Positions 961 to 64,000 of a DNA stretch of 64,000 bases are shown piece after piece; the stretch's first letter is position 1; every line of letters begins with the position of its first letter. This stretch comes from a virus (Duplodnaviria; Caudoviricetes), in IMG/VR virus record IMGVR_UViG_3300026549_000048, positions 1 to 64,000 of that record. One strand, written 5' to 3'. The translations under genes were made by a program, and so were the position numbers. The notes below the pieces were generated by a model. The model saw only the letters and a list, made by a program, of their open reading frames with translations, made no database searches and was not told the origin of the DNA.

Positions 961-1031
961 CGAACTCGAGGGGAATCGAACCCCCATCGCAAGCTCCGAA
1001 GGCTTGTGTGCTTCCATTACACCACGAGTTC
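961..1031 (-). tRNA. tRNA-Arg(UCG)
   Basis: Acceptor stem GAACTCG/CGAGTTC; anticodon arm CAAGC-CTTCGGA-GCTTG; T-loop TTCGATT; no encoded CCA. Confidence 0.92.
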
Positions 1032-1118
1032 AACCTTCATCTTGCGACAAAGGTTTTCATTGATATTAAAGGAAGGTTACAAAGTATGAAACAACTTTGT
1101 TATGGGTAAAAACCCAAA

Positions 1119-1193
1119 TGGGCACGACAGGATTTGAACCTGCGATGTTCTGGTCTGGAGCCAGACAGAATAGCCTAACTATCTTACGCACCC
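1119..1193 (-). tRNA. tRNA-Trp(CCA), intronless
   Basis: Acceptor stem GGGTGCG/CGTGCCC plus A73; anticodon arm TCTGG-CTCCAGA-CCAGA; T-loop TTCAAAT. Confidence 0.9.
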
Positions 1194-1200
1194 AAACGGT

Positions 1201-1250
1201 AACTGAAGTGCAACCACTCCATCAACAAACACTCTTGCTGCACTTCAGTT
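1201..1250 (-). ncRNA. 12-bp perfect stem with 26-nt loop, candidate small RNA between tRNAs
   Basis: AACTGAAGTGCA (1201-1212) pairs with TGCACTTCAGTT (1239-1250). Confidence 0.45.
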
Positions 1251-1296
1251 TGTATTCGCATAGGAATTGATTATATGTCAGCACCAAGAGGTGCAA

Positions 1297-1371
1297 AGCC
1301 CTATTCCCAGATTCGAACTGGGGTAGAATCGGTTCAGAACCGATAGCGTAACCACTCCGCCAAATAGGGCT
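1297..1371 (-). tRNA. tRNA with CUG (Gln) anticodon and an atypical extended acceptor stem
   Basis: Anticodon arm ATCGG-TTCTGAA-CCGAT; T-arm CCCAG-TTCGAAT-CTGGG; the acceptor stem can pair 9 bp (AGCCCTATT/AATAGGGCT). Confidence 0.85.
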
Positions 1372-1446
1372 CGGAGGGGAACCCCCCTCCAGGATATTAT
1401 TAGCACTTTCAAAGGAGGTGAAAGAAACTATAACTTATTTAACTGC

Positions 1447-1541
1447 GAGTGTTTTTAACGAGGTTGGGGGCTCAGCCCTCATAGAGTTGATATTTTATTT
1501 GAACGAAGAGTGTTTTTAACGAGGTTGGGGTCTCAACCCTC
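1447..1541. repeat. 34-bp direct repeat, 2 copies (1447-1480, 1508-1541), 32/34 identical
   Basis: GAGTGTTTTTAACGAGGTTGGGG(G/T)CTCA(G/A)CCCTC, 61-bp period. Confidence 0.95.
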
Positions 1542-1583
1542 CATGAAATATATTTGGAGGCAATAAATCATGAATATTGCCAA

Positions 1584-1655
1584 AGTCATAGGGCGGAATC
1601 GAACCACCATTTTCTGCTTACGAGGCAGATGTAATAGCCATTATACTACTATAAC
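1584..1655 (-). tRNA. tRNA-Thr(CGU)
   Basis: Acceptor stem GTTATAG/CTATGAC plus U73; anticodon arm TCTGC-CTCGTAA-GCAGA; T-loop TTCGATT. Confidence 0.92.
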
Positions 1656-1659
1656 AACG

Positions 1660-1985
1660 GGGAAAAAGGGGGAATCACCCCCTTCATCTAATTCGTGTTT
1701 CTTCGAACAGTTAAGTCTAGGTTTTATTATGAATAGATTCGGCTTCCCAAGGATAGCTCCTGTAAGGAAGCCATATGAATAAGGGGTGTTCCCCAACACC
1801 CCAAAATCACCTAACCGCAATGACCCATAGGGGTTAAAAACCAACAACCATCACCATAAAGAATCAAAAAAGACCCTATGGATCATTCATGTTTGTTTTC
1901 CCATTTAACGTGTTTTTATTATGTACTTCAAAGTGTGTGACTTGGAAATACTATGCCTCAATGACGACTTCCCAGTCACATTACT
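1660..1985 (-). ncRNA. Structured ~320-nt leader or ncRNA upstream of the tRNA cluster
   Basis: Five GC-rich hairpins (1666-1684, 1741-1772, 1783-1802, 1819-1887, 1936-1980) in an AT-rich genome, starting about 25 nt downstream of a TATA box. Confidence 0.6.
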
Positions 1986-2023
1986 TATTATGTATGAACC
2001 AATATATAAAGATTTCGGTTTGA
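1985..2023 (-). promoter_or_regulatory. Archaeal promoter driving the ncRNA/tRNA cluster
   Basis: The reverse complement reads TCAAACCGAAATCTTTATATATTGG..TACATAATAA, matching the promoter at 236-274. Confidence 0.85.
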
Positions 2024-2027
2024 TTTT

Positions 2028-3116
2028 TCAGGATTTGTATTTTAACTGTAAAATTTTCTGAAATTCTTTTATATCAAAATTGTCCAACCAGACCCTCTCT
2101 ATTTTTCTTTCTTCAAATGGGTTTATGACTCCTTCATCTCCCTCTAAAGTATAAAAGGTAGGCTGACTTGATCCGCGAAGATTTGCAACAAGCTCTCCTT
2201 TATTCTTGAAACAATAAACCAAGCTTGTTTTTGACCAGTTGAACCATCTGTTTTCAAAAAAGTCTTCTCGACACCCTCTAACCAATAATCCATTTGTTGA
2301 ATTAGCCTTCAATAGTTTACCAGCCTCTAAAACACTACGCCAACTCCACGCCTTAATAAATGGAGCCACTTCATATTCGGTGCATTTATATCCAAATTTT
2401 AATCTATTTTCAAGGGGCAAATCAGTAAACCATGTGTCATTAATTTTAATCACATCAATGATTTTGTTGTTTGACACTAAAAATAACCCCTCTCCATATC
2501 CATGACATTCTGCTTTTTCAACCTTTATGTCACGATGATGTTCCATTACAATGAAAGGTGCAATCATTCCATCACATAATCTCCATATATGTGGAATCCT
2601 AATAGGTTTCTCATCATTCAATGAAATGATACTTTCGGTGGCTGTCTTGATACTTTTTCTGCTGTTTTTTAAATCTGGTTTTGCCCTATTGAATACAAAA
2701 CCATTTCCGTTAAGAATTTGATTAAACACATCAAAAGCATCGTGCTGATTTTCATAAACGTGAACGGCCTTAGTGTAATCGAACCAAAATCCTCTGTACA
2801 ATAATTTTAAAATTTCAAAAAAACTAAATTGACCTTGATATGTAATGCAATCAATACGATTCTCATTTGCCTGTCCTTCAAACACCTCTTTACAAGTTAA
2901 ATCCATATCGAATTTTAAATCAGGATTATAATAATCAGAACATAACAAGGCAAAGCCGTAGGGATCGCACATATCATGGTAAAAATTAGGATATTTACCT
3001 TGTCTTACTTTGTCGTAAAAAGAATTAAATAGCTCAAGAAAAGTGCGCACATTTTGAGTAACGCCTCTTCTTTCTTTATGGATTGAGCCTCTTAATAGAT
3101 AACTATCTTTTAACAT
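2028..3116 (-). CDS. Hypothetical protein; C-terminal half resembles a degenerate ATP-dependent ligase adenylation domain
   Basis: IIDVIKINDTWFTDLPLENRL resembles motif IIIa/PLxER; NGLLVR resembles EGxVxK; RWFNWSK resembles WxKxK; no KxDG. Confidence 0.5.
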   Translation of the reverse strand: MLKDSYLLRGSIHKERRGVTQNVRTFLELFNSFYDKVRQGKYPNFYHDMCDPYGFALLCSDYYNPDLKFDMDLTCKEVFEGQANENRIDCITYQGQFSFFEILKLLYRGFWFDYTKAVHVYENQHDAFDVFNQILNGNGFVFNRAKPDLKNSRKSIKTATESIISLNDEKPIRIPHIWRLCDGMIAPFIVMEHHRDIKVEKAECHGYGEGLFLVSNNKIIDVIKINDTWFTDLPLENRLKFGYKCTEYEVAPFIKAWSWRSVLEAGKLLKANSTNGLLVRGCREDFFENRWFNWSKTSLVYCFKNKGELVANLRGSSQPTFYTLEGDEGVINPFEERKIERVWLDNFDIKEFQKILQLKYKS

Positions 3117-21852: not shown

Positions 21853-22455
21853 ATGTATTCAACATCATTGGACGGAAGTAAAGTATTGATAGTAAGTGGA
21901 TACACTCCACAGGAATTATTACTAAGAGCAAATAAAAAAACAAAAAATCAGGTGGGTACACCCCCATCTTTCTTTTTTGATGCGAGAAATATTCAGGTGC
22001 AACCACATAGACCTCGACGAGAAGAATTTGAAAGTGCGGAAGGATTACTTCCAAACGAAATGGCTTGTGATAATTTTGCAACAGTCACGATGGATATACT
22101 TGTTCATCAAAGTTTGACTAATGCAAAAGGAGAATTCGTTATTGAGTCCACCAAAAGAGAGGTTAGAATTATTACAACCGATACCGATAGGGATGTTTTA
22201 GATCAGGAATTACAGCTTGGTAGATATGTACGTCCAGAAGAATTTCCAGATGAGTATATTACTATTAGAGAAAATTTCTTTAAAGATTTATTAAATAGAC
22301 CATTGACTATTGTATCTCAATTATTTGAACCAATTACATTATGTTATATTGATGATTACGAATATAGCATCGCAGAGGGAGAAGAAGAGGCGGCATATTC
22401 AGTAACTTTCAGAGAATATGCAAGTATTGATTATAATAGGAGTAAAAAATCATGA
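21853..22455 (+). CDS. Baseplate/tube-initiator-like protein
   Basis: Directly after the TMP; C-terminal YSVTFREY. Confidence 0.6.
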   Translation: MYSTSLDGSKVLIVSGYTPQELLLRANKKTKNQVGTPPSFFFDARNIQVQPHRPRREEFESAEGLLPNEMACDNFATVTMDILVHQSLTNAKGEFVIESTKREVRIITTDTDRDVLDQELQLGRYVRPEEFPDEYITIRENFFKDLLNRPLTIVSQLFEPITLCYIDDYEYSIAEGEEEAAYSVTFREYASIDYNRSKKS

Positions 22456-23759
22456 GTTCTTTGCCTCCAGCTGACCCTAGGGTTGATACAAGCGAGAAAA
22501 CAACTTCTGCTTATTTAAAAATCAATCAGTCTCGATTAAAATCAATCAATCCTTTATTGGGAAAAACAGATACGACAGATAACACTCCTAATAATAAAGT
22601 TAGAGTAAAAGTATATACACCATTTGATGATAAAACTCATACATATTTTCATTCTATGTCTATCGATAAAGACGTTGCAGATTTTATGGGTACAGCAGAA
22701 TTACGATGCCCATATGATAGCGATTTAATGGCTTATTGGGAACCTGCTCGAGCTTATTGTGTAATTTATGGAACCAATCGAGGAGATTATAAAGTATTAT
22801 TTATTGGTAGAGTGAGAGAGGTTAACCAACAAGGTTATGAAATTGTAATAGCATTACAGGATTATGGCTGGAAATTTAAACAACTAATTACTCAATCATA
22901 TGCAAACGACAACGTTATCGGCAAAGACGGTTACACAATAATGAAATTGATGTTTCAGGCTTTGAAAATTGATTCTTGGGTTGTAACGCCAACGGCGAAA
23001 TATAGATTAAAGCAGGTTGGTATTGATGAAGATGGAAATGTAACTTTAAACAAGAAAGAAATTGAACAAATGCCAGATTTACTTAATCGTCTTAAGAAAA
23101 CAGATCCACGTCATGCGATTAATAAATATACAGTATATAACAAAATGAAAGAATCAGAATTACATAACCTCAATAATATTAATTATACTTTACGATATGA
23201 GAAACCTACGAAAATTATGAAAAAAACGGCAAAGGAAAGTAATTACAGTAAGGGAGCAAGTATGTATGGAACTAACTACGGTAGCAGCGGAGGAAGTAGT
23301 AGCGGAGGTGGTGGCTCTGGAGGATCATCCTCTAAAAGTAAATCATCCAAAACTATGACCGCATCTGGGACACGAAGACCTCCTGCTAATTTATGTTCAA
23401 ATATTAAAAGTGAAAGCGTTAGAGCCGCTATGAAAGTTATTTGGTCATATCAAAGAGGGTACACTAATAGTTTATCAAGTGCAAGTTCTGTAATTTATGA
23501 GTATGCTAGAAATTATCCAAGTGTATATTGGGCACAATTAGCCCCATGTCTTAGCACACTCTCAAAATGGGTTTCAAGGAGCAATAAACATAATGGTGCT
23601 GCTTCTGTTAAAGCTAATGCAGATAATGCTGCACGTAAAGGACAAACAAATCCATTAGGTAGAAGAAGTACGCGTAGGTCAGCTGGAAATCAAAGACATC
23701 CTACCTCTAAATCCAATAAAGGTTGGAGTTTTAATATTTTTGGAATAAGGTTTGGTTAG
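22452..23759 (+). CDS. Baseplate hub, N-terminal part, plus Gly/Ser linker and basic C-terminal domain
   Basis: LFIGRVREV...ALQDYGWKF resembles gpD/XkdQ-type hubs. Confidence 0.55.
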   Translation: MSSLPPADPRVDTSEKTTSAYLKINQSRLKSINPLLGKTDTTDNTPNNKVRVKVYTPFDDKTHTYFHSMSIDKDVADFMGTAELRCPYDSDLMAYWEPARAYCVIYGTNRGDYKVLFIGRVREVNQQGYEIVIALQDYGWKFKQLITQSYANDNVIGKDGYTIMKLMFQALKIDSWVVTPTAKYRLKQVGIDEDGNVTLNKKEIEQMPDLLNRLKKTDPRHAINKYTVYNKMKESELHNLNNINYTLRYEKPTKIMKKTAKESNYSKGASMYGTNYGSSGGSSSGGGGSGGSSSKSKSSKTMTASGTRRPPANLCSNIKSESVRAAMKVIWSYQRGYTNSLSSASSVIYEYARNYPSVYWAQLAPCLSTLSKWVSRSNKHNGAASVKANADNAARKGQTNPLGRRSTRRSAGNQRHPTSKSNKGWSFNIFGIRFG

Positions 23760-23767
23760 GTGTTAAT

Positions 23768-25390
23768 ATGACTCATTATCATATAGGTGCAGATAGATGT
23801 AATGGAGCTGAAAGAAGCTCAATGAATAAAATCGCAAAAGAATTAGAAAAATGTGGACATAAAGTAACAGTTGGAAGTGTGACTCCAGAACAGGAAGCCG
23901 CGGCATATCGTGTTAATAAAAAATCAGTATTTTTATTTTTAACTTGTGGTGTAGCTCCTGCTACAATTTGGTCATTTAAGGTGGCTGCGGCGAAAGGAGC
24001 AGTCCCGCCAACAATATTTTTACACGCATCATGGGAGAATGGAGATCCATCTTCTCCAATGCGAAGTGAAAAAAAAATGCTTAATTGTCCATTTAAACCT
24101 GAACATGATTCAGGAGGATTTGCAAATCCAGGTGCAATGAAAAGAGATGCAGGCAGTGCTACAACAGTAGGAGCCTACGCAAAAAAATATTCAAAATATA
24201 TTGGCGTTGCTTGGGCCGCAAATCCGACGGAAATGGGAAAGAAAATTTGTAACGGTGATGTTACTGGCTATGGTTCTGGTGGATCTGGAGGATCAAGTGG
24301 TTCAGGAAGCGGATCATCAAATGGTGGTTCCTCTACTGGATCAAGTGGGTCATCTCCTTTATTAAATGGAGAGGAAACATTTGAAGAGCTTGTTGGAGAT
24401 ATTTGTAAAGGAATTGATTTGGTATTTGCCGTTAAAAGAAGTACTGTAGTTGTATCGGATTATGAATCAATTTATGCTCAGGCAAAATACCTTCGAGATA
24501 ATAATAAAAGCGTTACAGAAAGCGAAGATATAAAATTATGGCAACTTCAAGATGGTTCATATGAACTGGATGTTAATCAATATGGATATTATAATACAGT
24601 TCGTGTTCATTACAAAAATGGTGTTGTTACTGAAAGTTATGAAGATTTGGTTCGAGTATTTGGAGTTGTTGCCATTGATTATCGTGAGCCAAAAATTGAT
24701 AAAAGCACGGCAATAATGAAGGCGAAGGCGTATTTAGCCGCTCACGTTAGGGATTTTGATATGGCTGTAAGGGCAACCATTCTTCACGATGGTGATATAG
24801 AAATTGGAGATATTGTTACATTGGAAAATCCAATGACAATGCGAGACCAAATTAGAATGAAAACAGAAAAAAGAGACCCTGAATACTTCTTTGTAAAAGG
24901 AACTTCTATTTCATGGGAGGGGTCAAGCTTTATTACCTGTGATTTGGATTTGCGATATGGAGCGGAAAGCCCAGAAGGTAAAGAAATTCCAGAAGCTGGA
25001 ACTACATATAGCAATGATAAAAAAGGAAAAAGTAGTGTAGCAGCTGGAGATATAACAGGAGCATTAGAAGAAATTGGAAAAAAATATGCAAGTTATGCGT
25101 ATAGTGGGGCATGTCAAAGCGCTTCTTGTGTAAAAAAACTAAAACAAGGAGATTGTTTTGGTATGAGTGATCTTTTATATTGTTCATTAAAAAGCTTAGG
25201 GGTTGAAGCAAAAATCGTAACATACGCATCCCCATATTCTAATAGCGGAACACATAGAAGTGTTTTATACAAAGATGAGAATGGACAATGGCAAGATTTT
25301 CCATACAAAAAATACGGTTTTCATAAGAATTTTAGTGCTATGGCCGCCTCAAAAACAAGTAAGCATATTATTAAAGGAACATGTGATTAA
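23768..25390 (+). CDS. Baseplate hub, C-terminal part, fused to a PeiW-like transglutaminase-fold cysteine protease
   Basis: YNTVRV, AKAYL and IEIGDIV hub motifs; C-terminal GDCFGMSDLL...GVEAKIV...THRSV...WQDF (Cys-His-Asp). Confidence 0.7.
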   Translation: MTHYHIGADRCNGAERSSMNKIAKELEKCGHKVTVGSVTPEQEAAAYRVNKKSVFLFLTCGVAPATIWSFKVAAAKGAVPPTIFLHASWENGDPSSPMRSEKKMLNCPFKPEHDSGGFANPGAMKRDAGSATTVGAYAKKYSKYIGVAWAANPTEMGKKICNGDVTGYGSGGSGGSSGSGSGSSNGGSSTGSSGSSPLLNGEETFEELVGDICKGIDLVFAVKRSTVVVSDYESIYAQAKYLRDNNKSVTESEDIKLWQLQDGSYELDVNQYGYYNTVRVHYKNGVVTESYEDLVRVFGVVAIDYREPKIDKSTAIMKAKAYLAAHVRDFDMAVRATILHDGDIEIGDIVTLENPMTMRDQIRMKTEKRDPEYFFVKGTSISWEGSSFITCDLDLRYGAESPEGKEIPEAGTTYSNDKKGKSSVAAGDITGALEEIGKKYASYAYSGACQSASCVKKLKQGDCFGMSDLLYCSLKSLGVEAKIVTYASPYSNSGTHRSVLYKDENGQWQDFPYKKYGFHKNFSAMAASKTSKHIIKGTCD

Positions 25391-61548: not shown

Positions 61549-61939
61549 TTTCCTCTCCCTCATTTATAATATCTTGAAAATAATTATCAAAAAAGTGTAC
61601 AAAAAATTTTCTAATATAATCACAATTAAGAAGAAGTGGAGCTATACCAAAATCTTCGCCTGTCCACGGATAATCAATGCAAAATTGACTAATCGGATCA
61701 TCATGTCTTGTACATAAATTTGTTTCTTCATCAAAATCTAAGCATCTTTGTGCTCGACAACAACGACCACATCGACTACAAGCATCAAATTCTATGACCT
61801 CTTCACGTGTAATATATTTTGCATTATGATACATTATATCTTCAATTTTTTCGTTTTTAAATTCTCGTGATAATTCTGGAAATTCATGAGAATAAAATTC
61901 TTTAAACCAATTAATACATTTCTTTGTGCTTGTATCCAT
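61529..61939 (-). CDS. YkgJ-like Cys-cluster (Fe-S/Zn) protein
   Basis: CSRCGRCC...C...C..H...C..YP. Confidence 0.8.
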   Translation of the reverse strand: MDTSTKKCINWFKEFYSHEFPELSREFKNEKIEDIMYHNAKYITREEVIEFDACSRCGRCCRAQRCLDFDEETNLCTRHDDPISQFCIDYPWTGEDFGIAPLLLNCDYIRKFFVHFFDNYFQDIINEGEENASRSD

Positions 61940-64000
61940 TAATGAACCTCCAAAATATTTAAAAACGTTTCATGTTCCATCAGGAAAAATACATATGAAC
62001 CCTCAACCATTAAATGTGGGGGATATTCTTCCGATCCAACCTCAATTTTTCCATCAAGAACTGTTTCTTCATTAATAATGAGATTATATCTCACACATGG
62101 ATTTCCATTTTTACTTGTAAAATATTTTACATCGGTTGCTACCCCACAAGGAACATTATTATTTTTTTGCAAAGATTGCACAATTTTAATAGCTTCCCCA
62201 CTATATAACCAATACTCATGTTGATATTTACTTGGATCATCTAAATTAATCAAAGATAGCAATGACCATTTTGTACCTTTTCCATTTACGTGTAATAATA
62301 ATGGAGTTCCCACTTCAAATGCTTCAACATATCTTGGAATGAATTCTTTTTCAACAAATAAAGAAACAACTTCAAATCCATCTGTTACACTTAAATATGC
62401 GTAATCTTTATTATCTTTATATTCTGTAACTAATCCTTTAATATAACAGTCATAATAATCATCTGTATGCTTAAATAATCCTGAAATAGAAGATAAATCA
62501 ATGTTAATATTCATTTCAGATAAATTATATAAATCTAAAACGTTACCTTTTGGATTAATTTTAATTCTTTGAAATTCTCTAAAGAGTGTTTCTTGTTCAT
62601 TCCAATCATCTGTTTCTTCGATTGTTTTATAAAGTGCACATCTATCTGTATTAAAACAATCAAAAGCTCCACATTCAATTAAAGCCTTTTTTACTGTTTT
62701 GTTTACTTTAGTTCTTTCGCAAAAATCTTCAAAAGATTTATATGGCTGATTAGCAATAATTTTTGGAACAGCCGCTGGACCAATTCCTTTTACCAAACTA
62801 AAGGATAAATAAATATTATTATCATCTTCCATAGTAATATCTTTTGATTGATTGATGTGAGGATTAACAATATCTTTTCCAAGATTACGTAATTCATTAT
62901 ACAATTTTGCTTTCTTTTCTTCTTTATCTGTATTGTTTAAACAAGAAAGTAAAAACTCAACTGGATAATATGTTCTCAACCAAGCAAAAATATATGTTAA
63001 AGCAGTATACCCAACACAATGAGCTTTATTAAAAGAATAAGAAGCAGATGCTTCCATTTTCGCCCACACTTTTTCAGCTATAGCGGAATCAATACCTCGA
63101 CTTGTACAAGATGCAATAAATTTTGGATAATATTCATCAAATATATATTGTAATTTTTTACCAATACCTTTTCTAATTAAATCAGCATCAACCGCACTCA
63201 TACCTGCAAAATCAGTTACAATGTGCATAGCATCTTCCTGATATACAATACAACCATATGTATCTTTTAAAATTGGTTCAAGCAAAGGATGATCATATTC
63301 AATAGGAATTTCCCCATGTTTCCTCTTTATATATAATTCGGTATCTCCAGAATCATTTGGTCCAGGTCTACATAATGCAACAACAGCAGCCAATTCATCA
63401 AAATTCTGTGGTTGCATTTTCTGACAAACTTCTGTTGCGGCTGGAGATTCAATTTGGAACATTCCCAATGTTGTTTGACAAATTGTTTGAAAAACCTTAG
63501 GATCATTATATTGTAATGGTAATGATACGCCTGGAAGTAAATCTAAACAATCTGCAATAATATCCAAACTGTTTAATCCTAATGTATCATTCTTAAGAAA
63601 ACCTAATGAATCCGCAGTCTTTCCATTATTATCCAAACAATCAACACCATTGACTCTAATAATTGAATCACGATATTCTACGTCCTGATCTAAAATTACC
63701 ATTGCTCCTGCATGAACACCATAATTCTTTAGCATTCCTGTTAATTTTGGATAATTTTCTTTAATGAAAGGGTGAGCGTCTAAATAATTTACAACATCTG
63801 GAATACTTTCAATATCATCGGTATCCCCAATCATTTTTGAGATTTTCTTTCTCAAGTCAAATGGAACTCCAGATACACGACCTAAATCATCAATTGCAAC
63901 TTTTTTCGTCCATCTCACTTGATTAATTACTTGATAAGTTCTATCATGACCAAAATCATCCTTAATGATTTTTAACACTTCTTTTCTTCTTTTTTTGCTA
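61939..64000 (-). CDS. dnaE: Family C DNA polymerase (Pol III alpha, DnaE-like), 5'-truncated by the window
   Basis: RRKEVL, GVHAGA, LKNDTLGL (catalytic Asp), GMFQIES, ALCRPGP, TYGCIVYQE, YSFNKAH, YYPVEF, KGIG; frame open to the window end. Confidence 0.95.
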   Translation of the reverse strand, partial: SKKRRKEVLKIIKDDFGHDRTYQVINQVRWTKKVAIDDLGRVSGVPFDLRKKISKMIGDTDDIESIPDVVNYLDAHPFIKENYPKLTGMLKNYGVHAGAMVILDQDVEYRDSIIRVNGVDCLDNNGKTADSLGFLKNDTLGLNSLDIIADCLDLLPGVSLPLQYNDPKVFQTICQTTLGMFQIESPAATEVCQKMQPQNFDELAAVVALCRPGPNDSGDTELYIKRKHGEIPIEYDHPLLEPILKDTYGCIVYQEDAMHIVTDFAGMSAVDADLIRKGIGKKLQYIFDEYYPKFIASCTSRGIDSAIAEKVWAKMEASASYSFNKAHCVGYTALTYIFAWLRTYYPVEFLLSCLNNTDKEEKKAKLYNELRNLGKDIVNPHINQSKDITMEDDNNIYLSFSLVKGIGPAAVPKIIANQPYKSFEDFCERTKVNKTVKKALIECGAFDCFNTDRCALYKTIEETDDWNEQETLFREFQRIKINPKGNVLDLYNLSEMNINIDLSSISGLFKHTDDYYDCYIKGLVTEYKDNKDYAYLSVTDGFEVVSLFVEKEFIPRYVEAFEVGTPLLLHVNGKGTKWSLLSLINLDDPSKYQHEYWLYSGEAIKIVQSLQKNNNVPCGVATDVKYFTSKNGNPCVRYNLIINEETVLDGKIEVGSEEYPPHLMVEGSYVFFLMEHETFLNILEVH

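What the first reader, a model, noticed from the sequence alone, without database searches (positions are those of the whole stretch)
1296..1371. CUG-anticodon tRNA with ambiguous identity: His-like G-1:C73 or an 8-9 bp acceptor stem
Seen: the acceptor arm pairs 9 bp (AGCCCUAUU/AAUAGGGCU). With a normal 7-bp stem the tRNA has C1:G72, C73 and an encoded G-1. Established: G-1:C73 is the main HisRS identity element, while archaeal tRNA-Gln normally needs A1:U72 for GatDE. Here that A:U pair exists only if the stem is 9 bp. Inference: either a missense tRNA putting His at CAG (CUG is one change from GUG), an elongated tRNA-Gln, or a decoy.
Basis: partly seen in the sequence, partly recalled or inferred. 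Interest (0 to 1): 0.7.

Follow-up and report, generated by a model that had tools for sequence, protein, structure and literature searches.

The report
Tyrosine-derived viral tRNA reading CAG
A virus of rumen methane-producing archaea carries an intact tRNA gene that descends from the virus family's tyrosine tRNA but now has a glutamine anticodon (a tyrosine-type AUA in sister strains) and a histidine-like end, so sequence alone cannot say which amino acid it delivers.

Summary
A real tRNA (Rfam 53.7 bits) lies at 1298-1369(-), with anticodon CUG, C1:G72, C73, encoded G-1, A-2:U74 and no CCA.

The decisive new result is its origin. It is the syntenic homologue, in the slot just upstream of tRNA-Trp, of an archaeal-type tRNA-Tyr(GUA) carried by related rumen viruses.
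- It is 69-72% identical to them.
- It scores 63.5 bits against a model built only from them; a true viral tRNA-Gln scores 29.3.

It has diverged about twice as fast as its neighbour tRNAs, yet it keeps the cloverleaf through compensatory changes. Two strains about 97% identical to the window carry AUA instead of CUG.

The 9-bp helix needs no special explanation. The closest Tyr homologue already has A-2, G-1 and U74, so a single A73>C change creates it. Extra pairing of this kind occurs at chance frequency in the family.

Viral CAG codons align with Gln exactly as CAA codons do, so there is no recoding.

It is not a canonical archaeal tRNA-Gln, because it lacks the A1:U72 pair that GatDE reads. 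It does not descend from tRNA-His.

Charging is unresolved. His (through G-1:C73) is my modal guess at about 0.35.

I class it as a new variant of tRNA anticodon shift.

The parts
1298..1369 (-). tRNA body, positions 1-73: acceptor stem CCCUAUU/AAUAGGG (C1:G72), D arm with a G13.A22 mismatch, anticodon arm AUCGG-UUCUGAA-CCGAU, 5-nt variable loop, T arm CCCAG-UUCGAAU-CUGGG, discriminator C73
   Evidence: Rfam 53.7 bits. Cloverleaf energy -22 kcal/mol with only 13:22 unpaired. 63.5 bits against a model built from five viral tRNA-Tyr(GUA) genes.
1335..1337 (-). Anticodon CUG (CAG on the + strand). It is AUA in two sister strains, through 1337 G>T and 1335 C>T.
   Evidence: runs X4 and X5, from different studies.
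1370..1372 (-). Leader nucleotides G-3, A-2 and G-1, which can pair with U75, U74 and C73
   Evidence: Sequence; precursor fold. A-2 and G-1 are shared with the L031 Tyr homologue.
1295..1297 (-). Trailer UUU (positions 74-76). No CCA is encoded. The same N73-UU(U)G trailer follows all four tRNAs of the cluster.
1373..1390 (-). GC-rich 7-bp hairpin (GGAGGGG-GGUU-CCCCUCC) that abuts the extended acceptor helix. It is absent from the Tyr homologues, where CACCUCCUU directly precedes the tRNA.
1281..1294 (-). 3' hairpin GCACC-UCUU-GGUGC. A hairpin also follows the other tRNAs of the cluster and the L031 and L019 Tyr homologues.
1584..1655 (-). tRNA-Thr(CGU), the upstream neighbour and a conserved anchor of the cluster in relatives
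1119..1193 (-). tRNA-Trp(CCA), archaeal type (G1:C72, G2:C71, A73). It is the downstream neighbour; in relatives the gene just upstream of it is tRNA-Tyr(GUA).
   Evidence: identity set from PMC9976931.
961..1031 (-). tRNA-Arg(UCG), the last gene of the cluster. A metatranscriptome contig ends at its 3' end.

Best explanation
SHOWN: what it is.
The gene is a fast-evolving, anticodon-shifted descendant of the archaeal-type tRNA-Tyr(GUA) gene that related rumen viruses carry in the same slot (Thr - ... - Tyr - Trp). These viruses most likely infect Methanobacteriales, probably Methanobrevibacter. In the window's lineage the changes from the Tyr consensus are:
- discriminator A73>C;
- anticodon loop C32>U, G34>C, A36>G and G37>A;
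- A9>G, U13>G and G26>U;
- three stem pairs replaced by double compensatory changes.
The Tyr identity pair C1:G72 was kept. Sister strains have AUA, one change from GUA. The His-like G-1:C73 pair and the 9-bp helix are by-products of the single A73>C change on an inherited AG leader and UU trailer. They are not an extended tRNA-Gln design.

INFERRED: how it works.
- It is transcribed with the cluster, cut out by host RNase P and RNase Z, and given CCA by the host.
- It still folds as a tRNA and reads CAG.
- It is not a regular Gln-tRNA. GatDE needs A1:U72, while the archaeal enzymes that read the acceptor end rather than the anticodon would see a His-like or Tyr-like end.

My split for what it carries: His about 0.35 (if G-1 survives RNase P), Tyr about 0.15, Glu or Gln about 0.15, and uncharged or used outside translation about 0.35.

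The most likely picture is a tRNA in identity flux that acts as a weak or mis-charged CAG reader in this strain, rather than a codon-supply tRNA-Gln.
For: Homology and synteny:
- Relatives were found through homologues of ORF 2028-3116 and by pattern search. They carry tRNA-Tyr(GUA) just upstream of tRNA-Trp.
- The alignment places the window tRNA on them.
- It is 69-72% identical to them, against 50% to a real viral tRNA-Gln(UUG).
- A model built from five Tyr genes scores it 63.5 bits. That is the best non-training hit; the viral tRNA-Gln scores 29.3.

Structure is still selected:
- C1:G72 is invariant in 8 of 8 sequences.
- 95% of cells are paired, 10 pairs changed on both sides, and 0 of 500 shuffles reach this.
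- All stem changes between the window, X4 and X5 keep pairing, including C29:G41>U:A.
- Its Rfam score lies within the range of the Tyr genes, 52-60 bits.

Acceleration is specific to this gene:
- It is 71% identical to its homologues, which are 87% identical among themselves. Thr, Trp and Arg show no such gap.
- 8 of 23 X4 substitutions fall within its 72 nt (p = 1e-4).

Anticodon polymorphism: CUG stands in the window, in L027 and in the RNA run X2; AUA stands in X4 and X5.

The 9-bp helix is at chance level, and its flanks are inherited.

Archaeal host:
- TerL and DnaE match Methanobacterium virus PhiF1 best.
- The Tyr tRNA is class I with C1:G72, the Trp tRNA has A73, G1:C72 and G2:C71, and the Gln tRNA has A1:U72. 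ARAGORN predicts introns in two tRNA genes of relatives that also pass Rfam's threshold.
- The runs that hold the sequence are bovine gut samples.

Identity rules come from PMC9976931 and PMC2330236.

No viral aaRS or tRNA-processing enzyme was found.

Expression hint: an RNA-library contig covering 961-2000 has depth 259, against about 25 for the flank.
Against: - No aminoacylation or end-mapping data exist. Which amino acid it carries is inference from rules measured in other archaea (A. pernix HisRS, M. jannaschii and other TyrRSs, M. thermautotrophicus GatDE).
- The host genus is inferred, and its tRNA set could not be fetched.
- A missense reader should be costly, yet CAG is not avoided at conserved Gln sites (27.0% against 28.9% for CAA, p = 0.8). 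That argues for weak activity, a recent origin, or correct Gln charging.
- An AUA sister allele with the same G-1:C73 end would put His at the very common UAU codon. This is hard to reconcile with strong His charging.
- Contigs of an RNA library cannot prove transcription or show mature ends.
- The sister-strain alleles rest on one low-depth contig per run (depth 4.3 and 6.3), although the two runs, from different studies, agree.
Confidence: 0.6

Rival explanations
1. His-inserting missense tRNA. RNase P leaves G-1 because it pairs with C73. The host HisRS reads the -1 nucleotide and C73 but not the anticodon, so it charges the tRNA, and His is placed at CAG.
For: - G-1 and C73 are encoded.
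- The review PMC9976931 gives the archaeal (A. pernix) His set as N-1, weak C73, C50-G64 and G29-C41, with the anticodon not recognised. It also reports that transplanting G-1:C73 confers His acceptance on other helices.
- The window tRNA has C50:G64 as a derived state, where the Tyr homologues have U50:A64.
- A73>C also removes a Tyr determinant.
Against: - It does not descend from tRNA-His. Relatives carry GUA or AUA, never GUG.
- G-1 is inherited flank sequence and is also present, with A73, in the L031 Tyr gene.
- It has C29:G41, not G29:C41.
- CAG codons align with Q, with H at only 1.3%, and CAG is not depleted at conserved Q sites.
- The AUA sister allele would put His at UAU, of which the genome has 1503.
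- A-2:U74 and G-3:U75 could move the RNase P cut elsewhere.
Confidence: 0.3
2. An ordinary codon-supply tRNA-Gln. The anticodon shift recruited a spare Tyr gene to read the rare CAG codon. The host ND-GluRS charges it through the anticodon, and GatDE amidates it.
For: - The cluster's other members read G-ending or rare codons (Thr-CGU, Arg-UCG).
- CGA+CGG make up 20% of Arg codons here, against 7% in two relatives without tRNA-Arg(UCG). Codon supply is therefore plausible for this cluster.
- CAG is used as Gln.
- G9 and U32 match the viral tRNA-Gln(UUG) of L032.
Against: - It lacks A1:U72 and A73, which the real viral tRNA-Gln has (L032).
- GatDE recognises A1-U72 and not the anticodon (PMC2330236).
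- The A:U pair exists only at the end of a 9-bp stem, which with the 5-bp T stem gives a 14-bp stack instead of 12.
- CAG use is not raised compared with relatives (0.19 here, against 0.14 and 0.30).
- Sister strains with the same body carry AUA.
Confidence: 0.15
3. A tRNA-shaped RNA that works outside decoding, for example as a decoy or substitute aimed at a host tRNA-cleaving defence, or as a processing signal in the polycistronic RNA. Shape is then selected while the anticodon loop drifts or diversifies.
For: - Substitutions between strains cluster in the anticodon arm, while the stems stay paired.
- Phage tRNAs are known to escape anticodon nucleases through anticodon-loop changes (PMC10264068).
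- The title and abstract of PMC11555353 say phages evade retrons and other defences by producing specific tRNAs. That phage tRNA-Tyr is the case in point comes from my own recollection; I did not read it in the paper.
- The slot is dispensable: it is empty or eroded in L047 and L048 and holds Asn in L030.
Against: - Known escape tRNAs keep their anticodon. Here the anticodon itself changes.
- A processing signal alone would not need a compensated anticodon stem (C29:G41>U:A in X4).
- No archaeal anticodon nuclease is linked to this virus.
Confidence: 0.2
4. A decaying tRNA-Tyr pseudogene. A73>C killed its function, and the CUG anticodon is one of many neutral hits.
For: - It diverges twice as much as its neighbour tRNAs do.
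- It has a G13.A22 mismatch.
- The slot is lost or eroded in some relatives.
Against: - Three double compensatory stem changes have occurred since the Tyr ancestor, and one more between strains.
- All six stem substitutions among the window, X4 and X5 preserve pairing.
- Its Rfam score equals that of the functional Tyr homologues.
- The T loop and the D-loop GG are intact.
Confidence: 0.12

Closest known systems
Archaeal-type tRNA-Tyr(GUA) genes of related rumen viruses (L031:5038-5109, L019:6582-6653, L037:3248-3319, L028:5195-5266, L032:2088-2159)
   Same: - Same slot just upstream of tRNA-Trp.
- C1:G72 and a class I 5-nt variable loop.
- Nearly the same D arm and anticodon stem.
- 69-72% identity, and 63.5 bits against their model.
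   Different: - Anticodon CUG instead of GUA.
- C73 instead of A73, and A37 instead of G37.
- G13.A22 mismatch.
- About twice the divergence of the other family members.
tRNA anticodon shifts and alloacceptor remolding (eukaryotic nuclear genes, PMC3923123; metazoan mitochondria, PMC4783518)
   Same: An orthologous tRNA gene, identified by synteny, changes anticodon class while it keeps the body of its ancestor.
   Different: - It sits in an archaeal virus.
- The anticodon is polymorphic (CUG or AUA) between strains about 97% identical.
- The acceptor-end determinants fit neither the old identity (A73 is lost) nor the new one (no A1:U72).
Natural mis-decoding tRNAs: nematode nev-tRNAs (Leu body with a Gly or Ile anticodon, PMC3333845) and bacterial tRNAProX (PMC10404621)
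   Same: The body carries the identity of one amino acid and the anticodon that of another.
   Different: - The abstracts show mischarging for nev-tRNAs and report mistranslation by the tRNAProX family. Here nothing has been measured.
- No dedicated synthetase is encoded.
- Proline-identity tRNAs paired with a dedicated ProRSx, and A34 anticodons in that family, are my recollection. I did not read them in the paper.
tRNA-His (G-1:C73, 8-bp acceptor stem)
   Same: Encoded G-1 opposite C73. It also has C50:G64, as in the A. pernix His identity set (PMC9976931).
   Different: - The anticodon is not GUG.
- No GUG relatives exist.
- The body is homologous to Tyr.
- Further pairing at -2:74 and -3:75.
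Archaeal tRNA-Gln of the ND-GluRS/GatDE route (for example viral L032:2422-2493, UUG)
   Same: Gln-class anticodon (CUG); G9 and U32.
   Different: C1:G72 and C73 instead of A1:U72 and A73. Only 50% identity and 29 bits cross-score.
Phage tRNAs with anticodon-loop changes that evade host anticodon nucleases (PMC10264068)
   Same: Virus-borne tRNA whose anticodon arm is the hotspot of change.
   Different: There the anticodon, and so the decoding, is kept. Here the anticodon itself differs.

Membership tests
tRNA (Rfam RF00005) | Cloverleaf and conserved loops scoring above the gathering threshold of 29 bits | tested here: met
   53.7 bits at 1298-1369(-). This is the same range as its Tyr homologues, 52-60 bits.
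Archaeal/eukaryal-type tRNA-Tyr | C1:G72 first pair | tested here: met
   C at 1369 and G at 1299. The pair is invariant in all 8 family sequences. Identity set from PMC9976931.
Archaeal/eukaryal-type tRNA-Tyr | Discriminator A73 | tested here: not met
   C73 at position 1298. All six viral Tyr(GUA) genes examined, including L021, have A73.
Archaeal/eukaryal-type tRNA-Tyr | Anticodon GUA (G34, U35, A36) | tested here: not met
   The anticodon is CUG, so only U35 is kept. Sister strains have AUA.
Archaeal/eukaryal-type tRNA-Tyr | Homology and synteny with bona fide tRNA-Tyr genes | tested here: met
   The same slot upstream of tRNA-Trp. 63.5 bits against a model built from Tyr genes only, the best non-training hit.
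tRNA-His | Encoded G-1 opposite C73 | tested here: met
   G at 1370 and C at 1298. G-1 is an inherited flank nucleotide, also present in the L031 Tyr gene.
tRNA-His | Anticodon GUG, or relatives with GUG | tested here: not met
   CUG here; GUA or AUA in every homologue found.
tRNA-His | G-1 retained in the mature tRNA, and histidylation | not testable with these tools
   Only contigs of public runs were available, and these cannot show RNA ends.
Archaeal tRNA-Gln (GatDE substrate) | A1:U72 first pair (with A73) | tested here: not met
   C1:G72 and C73. An A:U pair exists only as -2:74. A real viral tRNA-Gln has A1:U72 and A73. The GatDE rule is from PMC2330236.
Archaeal tRNA-Gln (GatDE substrate) | Gln anticodon (YUG) | tested here: met
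   CUG at 1335-1337.
Archaeal tRNA-Gln (GatDE substrate) | D-loop positions 19 and 20, and a D loop without the extra bases of tRNA-Glu, as read by GatDE | tested here: inconclusive
   The short 7-nt D loop (AGUGGUU) is compatible. No host tRNA-Gln or tRNA-Glu could be fetched for comparison.
Long-acceptor tRNAs (tRNA-Sec 8/5 or 9/4; allo-tRNAs) | A 13-bp acceptor+T stack with a shortened T stem and/or a long variable arm, conserved in relatives | tested here: not met
   A 5-bp T stem and 5-nt variable loop would give 9+5 = 14 bp. The -2:74 pair occurs at chance frequency, 2 of 38.

The most novel reading that the evidence does not exclude
The body is charged by an anticodon-blind route: His through G-1:C73, or Tyr through C1:G72. 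The virus population keeps alleles of the same body with different anticodons (CUG, AUA). That would make it a natural, virus-borne missense tRNA whose target codon is switched between strains, perhaps to corrupt host or rival-virus proteins or to escape a tRNA-directed defence.
Probability: 0.12. Interest if true: 0.9.

Novelty: new variant of a known kind. Interest (0 to 1): 0.6.

Why it matters
Anticodon shifts that move a tRNA gene from one amino-acid class to another are documented in eukaryotic nuclei and in mitochondria. I found no description of one in an archaeal virus, nor of one caught as a polymorphism between near-identical strains.

This locus offers an evolutionary series that can be tested directly:
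- GUA in relatives;
- AUA and CUG in sister strains;
- A73>C at the discriminator;
- ongoing compensatory changes in the stems.

The host group's identity rules for TyrRS, HisRS and GluRS/GatDE make different, checkable predictions. A handful of in-vitro charging and end-mapping experiments would tell whether viruses of methanogens tolerate, or exploit, a tRNA whose anticodon and acceptor end disagree.

It is also a practical warning. Naming viral tRNAs by anticodon alone mislabels this gene as tRNA-Gln.

Tried and rejected
Searches that found nothing:
- No similar DNA or tRNA in the annotated phage collection, in near or distant mode.
- Three exact-pattern scans for the window-type body: viral contigs and metagenome contigs.
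- The TerL-profile scan of prokaryote genomes used poor N-terminal patterns and found nothing.
- The exact look-up of the small flanking ORF found no record. Its 90% cluster has almost no members, so no further sister strains could be fetched.

Limits reached:
- The second genome scan, with NrdD, returned only MAGs labelled as bacteria. No Methanobrevibacter genome handle was obtained, so the host tRNA-Gln, tRNA-His and tRNA-Tyr could not be compared.
- Relatives of a virus record cannot be drawn.
- Read laying is capped at one call, so runs X6-X24 could not be surveyed for more anticodon alleles. Only contigs were available, so mature RNA ends and strand could not be read.

Relatives that did not help:
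- The closest IMG/VR relative (L005/G001) ends before the tRNA region.
- The related 99-kb contig G003:C34 has no tRNAs.

Other negatives:
- Pfam found no pseudomurein-endopeptidase domain in ORFs 22452-25390.
- A re-scan of L037:2500-2720 alone gave no Rfam hit, although the whole-locus scan had given one.
- CAG share was compared with tRNA content across relatives and showed no pattern.

Rejected readings:
- A canonical 7/5 cloverleaf starting at A-2. This would leave two unpaired nucleotides on each side of the acceptor stem.
- Descent from tRNA-His.

Full report
**What is at the site.** The window is the first 64 kb of a 121,120-bp IMG/VR virus record with terminal repeats. Four tRNA genes lie on the minus strand between 960 and 1655: Thr-CGU, the finding, Trp-CCA and Arg-UCG. 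The finding's gene matches Rfam tRNA at 1298-1369 with 53.7 bits. Read as RNA it has:
- acceptor stem CCCUAUU/AAUAGGG, so C1:G72;
- discriminator C73;
- anticodon loop UUCUGAA, so anticodon CUG;
- a 5-nt variable loop and a canonical T arm;
- no encoded CCA.

The leader ends ...CC-G-A-G and the trailer begins U-U-U-G. G-1:C73 and A-2:U74 can therefore pair, and G-3:U75 as well. The minimum-energy fold of the precursor forms this 10-bp helix between two flanking hairpins.

**Host.**
- The large terminase (36% identity, E = 2e-70) and the DnaE-type polymerase both match Methanobacterium virus PhiF1 best; its host is Methanothermobacter.
- The GC content is about 30%.
- All runs that hold the sequence well are bovine gut samples.
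- The tRNAs themselves are archaeal in type. The Trp gene has G1:C72, G2:C71 and A73. The Tyr genes of relatives are class I with C1:G72 and A73. A relative's tRNA-Gln(UUG) has A1:U72 and A73. ARAGORN predicts introns at or next to position 37/38 in two tRNA genes of relatives that also pass Rfam's threshold. The identity sets are from PMC9976931.
- A preprint describes non-lysogenic rumen Methanobrevibacter viruses that carry ribonucleotide reductase and dUTPase genes, as this virus does.

I therefore take the host to be a Methanobacteriales archaeon, probably Methanobrevibacter. This is an inference. NrdD homologues found in MAGs labelled Bacilli, Clostridiales and Erysipelotrichaceae include a 99-kb contig that is a related virus binned with bacteria.

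**Origin of the gene.** ORF 2028-3116, next to the cluster, has 88 homologues. I fetched their contigs and scanned them for tRNAs. They show a variable cluster anchored by Thr-CGU and Trp-CCA. The gene just upstream of Trp is tRNA-Tyr(GUA) in L019, L028 and L031. L021-L026 carry a more distant tRNA-Tyr(GUA) directly after Thr. The slot holds Asn in L030 and is empty or eroded in L047 and L048. A pattern search for the D arm and anticodon stem found further members in L032, L034 and L037, all with GUA.

- The window tRNA aligns on these Tyr genes column for column.
- It is 69-72% identical to them, and 50% identical to the real viral tRNA-Gln.
- A covariance model built from five Tyr genes, without the window, scores the window tRNA at 63.5 bits. 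That is the best non-training hit. Every other tRNA scores 50 bits or less, and the tRNA-Gln scores 29.3.

The gene is therefore a shifted tRNA-Tyr, not a tRNA-Gln or tRNA-His by descent.

**Tempo and mode.**
- The five Tyr genes are 87% identical among themselves, while the window gene is 71% identical to them.
- The window's Thr, Trp and Arg genes show no such excess: 89 against 85, 79 against 76, and 79 against 82.
- The cloverleaf is nevertheless kept. On the 8-sequence alignment 95% of cells pair, 10 pairs changed on both sides, none of 500 shuffles reaches this, and C1:G72 never varies.
- Relative to the Tyr consensus, the window lineage replaced pairs 5:68, 50:64 and 52:62 by double changes. 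Only 13:22 is broken.

This pattern does not fit a decaying pseudogene.

**Strain polymorphism.** I laid contigs of four public runs on 880-2000.
- X2, a bovine metatranscriptome from another study, holds an identical 1.6-kb contig. Its depth is 259, against about 25 for the adjacent contig, and it ends at 961, the 3' end of tRNA-Arg. This is a hint of transcription and processing, not proof.
- An independent ENA assembly (L027) also carries CUG.
- X4 and X5, from two other studies, are about 97% identical overall. Both have 1337 G>T and 1335 C>T, which turns the anticodon into AUA.
- Other changes in them all keep the stems paired: C29:G41>U:A in X4; A27>G and C50>U in X5; C39>U in both.
- 8 of 23 X4 substitutions fall in these 72 nt (p = 1e-4).
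- Positions -2, -1, 73 and 74 do not differ between the strains.

**The 8-9 bp stem.**
- ARAGORN draws 8-bp stems for three of the four window tRNAs and for many in relatives, because U-1 and A73 are both common.
- Over 38 distinct genes, -1:73 can pair in 18 (41% expected), and both -1:73 and -2:74 pair in 2.
- L031's Tyr gene has the same A-2, G-1 and U74 flanks, with A73. The 9-bp helix follows from one change at the discriminator.
- With a 5-bp T stem, a 9-bp acceptor stem would give a 14-bp stack. No relative supports such a design.

**Is CAG recoded?** I compared the proteins of the virus with two related genomes and twelve loci by tblastn.

| Window codon | Aligned with Q | with H | with Y | with E |
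|---|---|---|---|---|
| CAG | 45.9% | 1.3% | 1.3% | 10.8% |
| CAA | 49.4% | 2.0% | 1.0% | 9.5% |

CAG is not avoided at fully conserved Q sites (27.0% against 28.9%, p = 0.8). CAG use (19% of Gln codons) is unremarkable among relatives. By contrast, CGA+CGG use is 20% here and 7% in two relatives without tRNA-Arg(UCG).

**Which amino acid?** No synthetase or tRNA-processing enzyme was found in the virus, so host rules apply.
- Tyr (archaea): the identity set is A73, C1-G72, G34, U35 and A36. The gene keeps only C1-G72 and U35.
- His (A. pernix): a -1 nucleotide, weak C73, C50-G64 and G29-C41, with the anticodon not read. G-1:C73 transplants His acceptance to other helices. The gene has G-1, C73 and a derived C50:G64 (PMC9976931).
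- Gln: M. thermautotrophicus GatDE reads A1-U72 and the D loop, not the anticodon (PMC2330236). The gene lacks A1:U72.

My estimate: His about 0.35 (if RNase P leaves G-1), Tyr about 0.15, Glu or Gln about 0.15, and uncharged or non-translational about 0.35.

Two facts count against strong His charging. The AUA allele with the same end would hit the very common UAU codon. CAG is not avoided at conserved sites.

**Comparison and verdict.** The nearest known phenomena are:
- anticodon shifts and alloacceptor remolding (PMC3923123, PMC4783518);
- natural mis-decoding tRNAs (nev-tRNAs, PMC3333845; tRNAProX, PMC10404621);
- among viruses, tRNAs whose anticodon loops change under pressure from host nucleases (PMC10264068).

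This case differs in three ways. It sits in an archaeal virus. It has a hybrid Tyr/His/Gln signal set. Its anticodon is polymorphic between near-identical strains. I class it as a new variant of a known kind and rate its interest at 0.6. The function is open, but it can be tested directly.

Noticed in passing
L019:6567-6581, L028:5179-5193, L031:5024-5037, L034 and L037 (leaders of tRNA-Tyr); window 1406-1424 (-): The motif (U)CACCUCCUU resembles the 3' end of 16S rRNA (anti-Shine-Dalgarno); the resemblance is from memory. It sits directly against the 5' end of the Tyr tRNA in five relatives, so RNase P cleavage would release a leader ending in it. In the window the same motif lies about 35 nt upstream, displaced by the inserted GC hairpin at 1373-1390.
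   Followed up: partly
window 1443-1480 (-): There is a second substitution hotspot between strains. X4 and X5 share five changes and a 1-nt insertion within 1446-1475, inside one copy of the duplicated roughly 34-nt motif that lies between tRNA-Thr and the finding.
   Followed up: no
L037:2556-2671; L028:5020-5093 (= L029:3267-3340); L032:4929-5041: Relatives carry odd tRNA candidates. One is an intron-containing 'Pro(AGG)' (Rfam 42.6 bits). Another is a 'Val(AAC)' called only by ARAGORN. A third is an intron-containing Thr(UGU). Together with the AUA allele, they suggest that A34 anticodons, which to my knowledge archaeal cells avoid, recur in this virus family.
   Followed up: partly
window 961-2000 (run X2): A bovine metatranscriptome contig covers 961 to beyond 2000 at depth 259 and stops at the 3' end of tRNA-Arg. 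The next contig (880-938) has depth about 25. This fits a polycistronic tRNA-cluster RNA that ends at tRNA-Arg.
   Followed up: no
whole genome: CGA+CGG make up 20% of Arg codons in this virus, which carries tRNA-Arg(UCG). In two related genomes without that tRNA the share is about 7%. This is a codon-supply signal for Arg that the CUG tRNA does not show for CAG.
   Followed up: partly
G003:C34 (L042-L046) and L012-L014: A 99-kb contig in a MAG labelled Clostridiales encodes a TerL 61% identical to the window's, and no tRNAs. It looks like a related archaeal virus binned with a bacterium. NrdD homologues at 62-71% identity sit in MAGs labelled Bacilli and Erysipelotrichaceae.
   Followed up: partly
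L047:2905-3198: In this relative (Thr - gap - Trp - Arg, the same gene order as the window) no tRNA is called in the Tyr slot. It still holds the CCUCCUU leader and a GGGUUUGAUUCC T-arm-like remnant, so it appears to be an eroded copy.
   Followed up: no
window 61939-64000 and G000 64422-65363: The DnaE-type polymerase is split into a separate PHP-domain ORF and a polymerase ORF. Its best match in annotated phage records is PhiF1.
   Followed up: partly
window 961-1655: In the window, each of the four tRNAs is followed by N73-UU(U)G and then a short hairpin within a few nucleotides. A similar short U-rich trailer follows many tRNA genes of relatives, and a hairpin follows the L031 and L019 Tyr genes. 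This may be a shared 3'-processing or termination signal.
   Followed up: no
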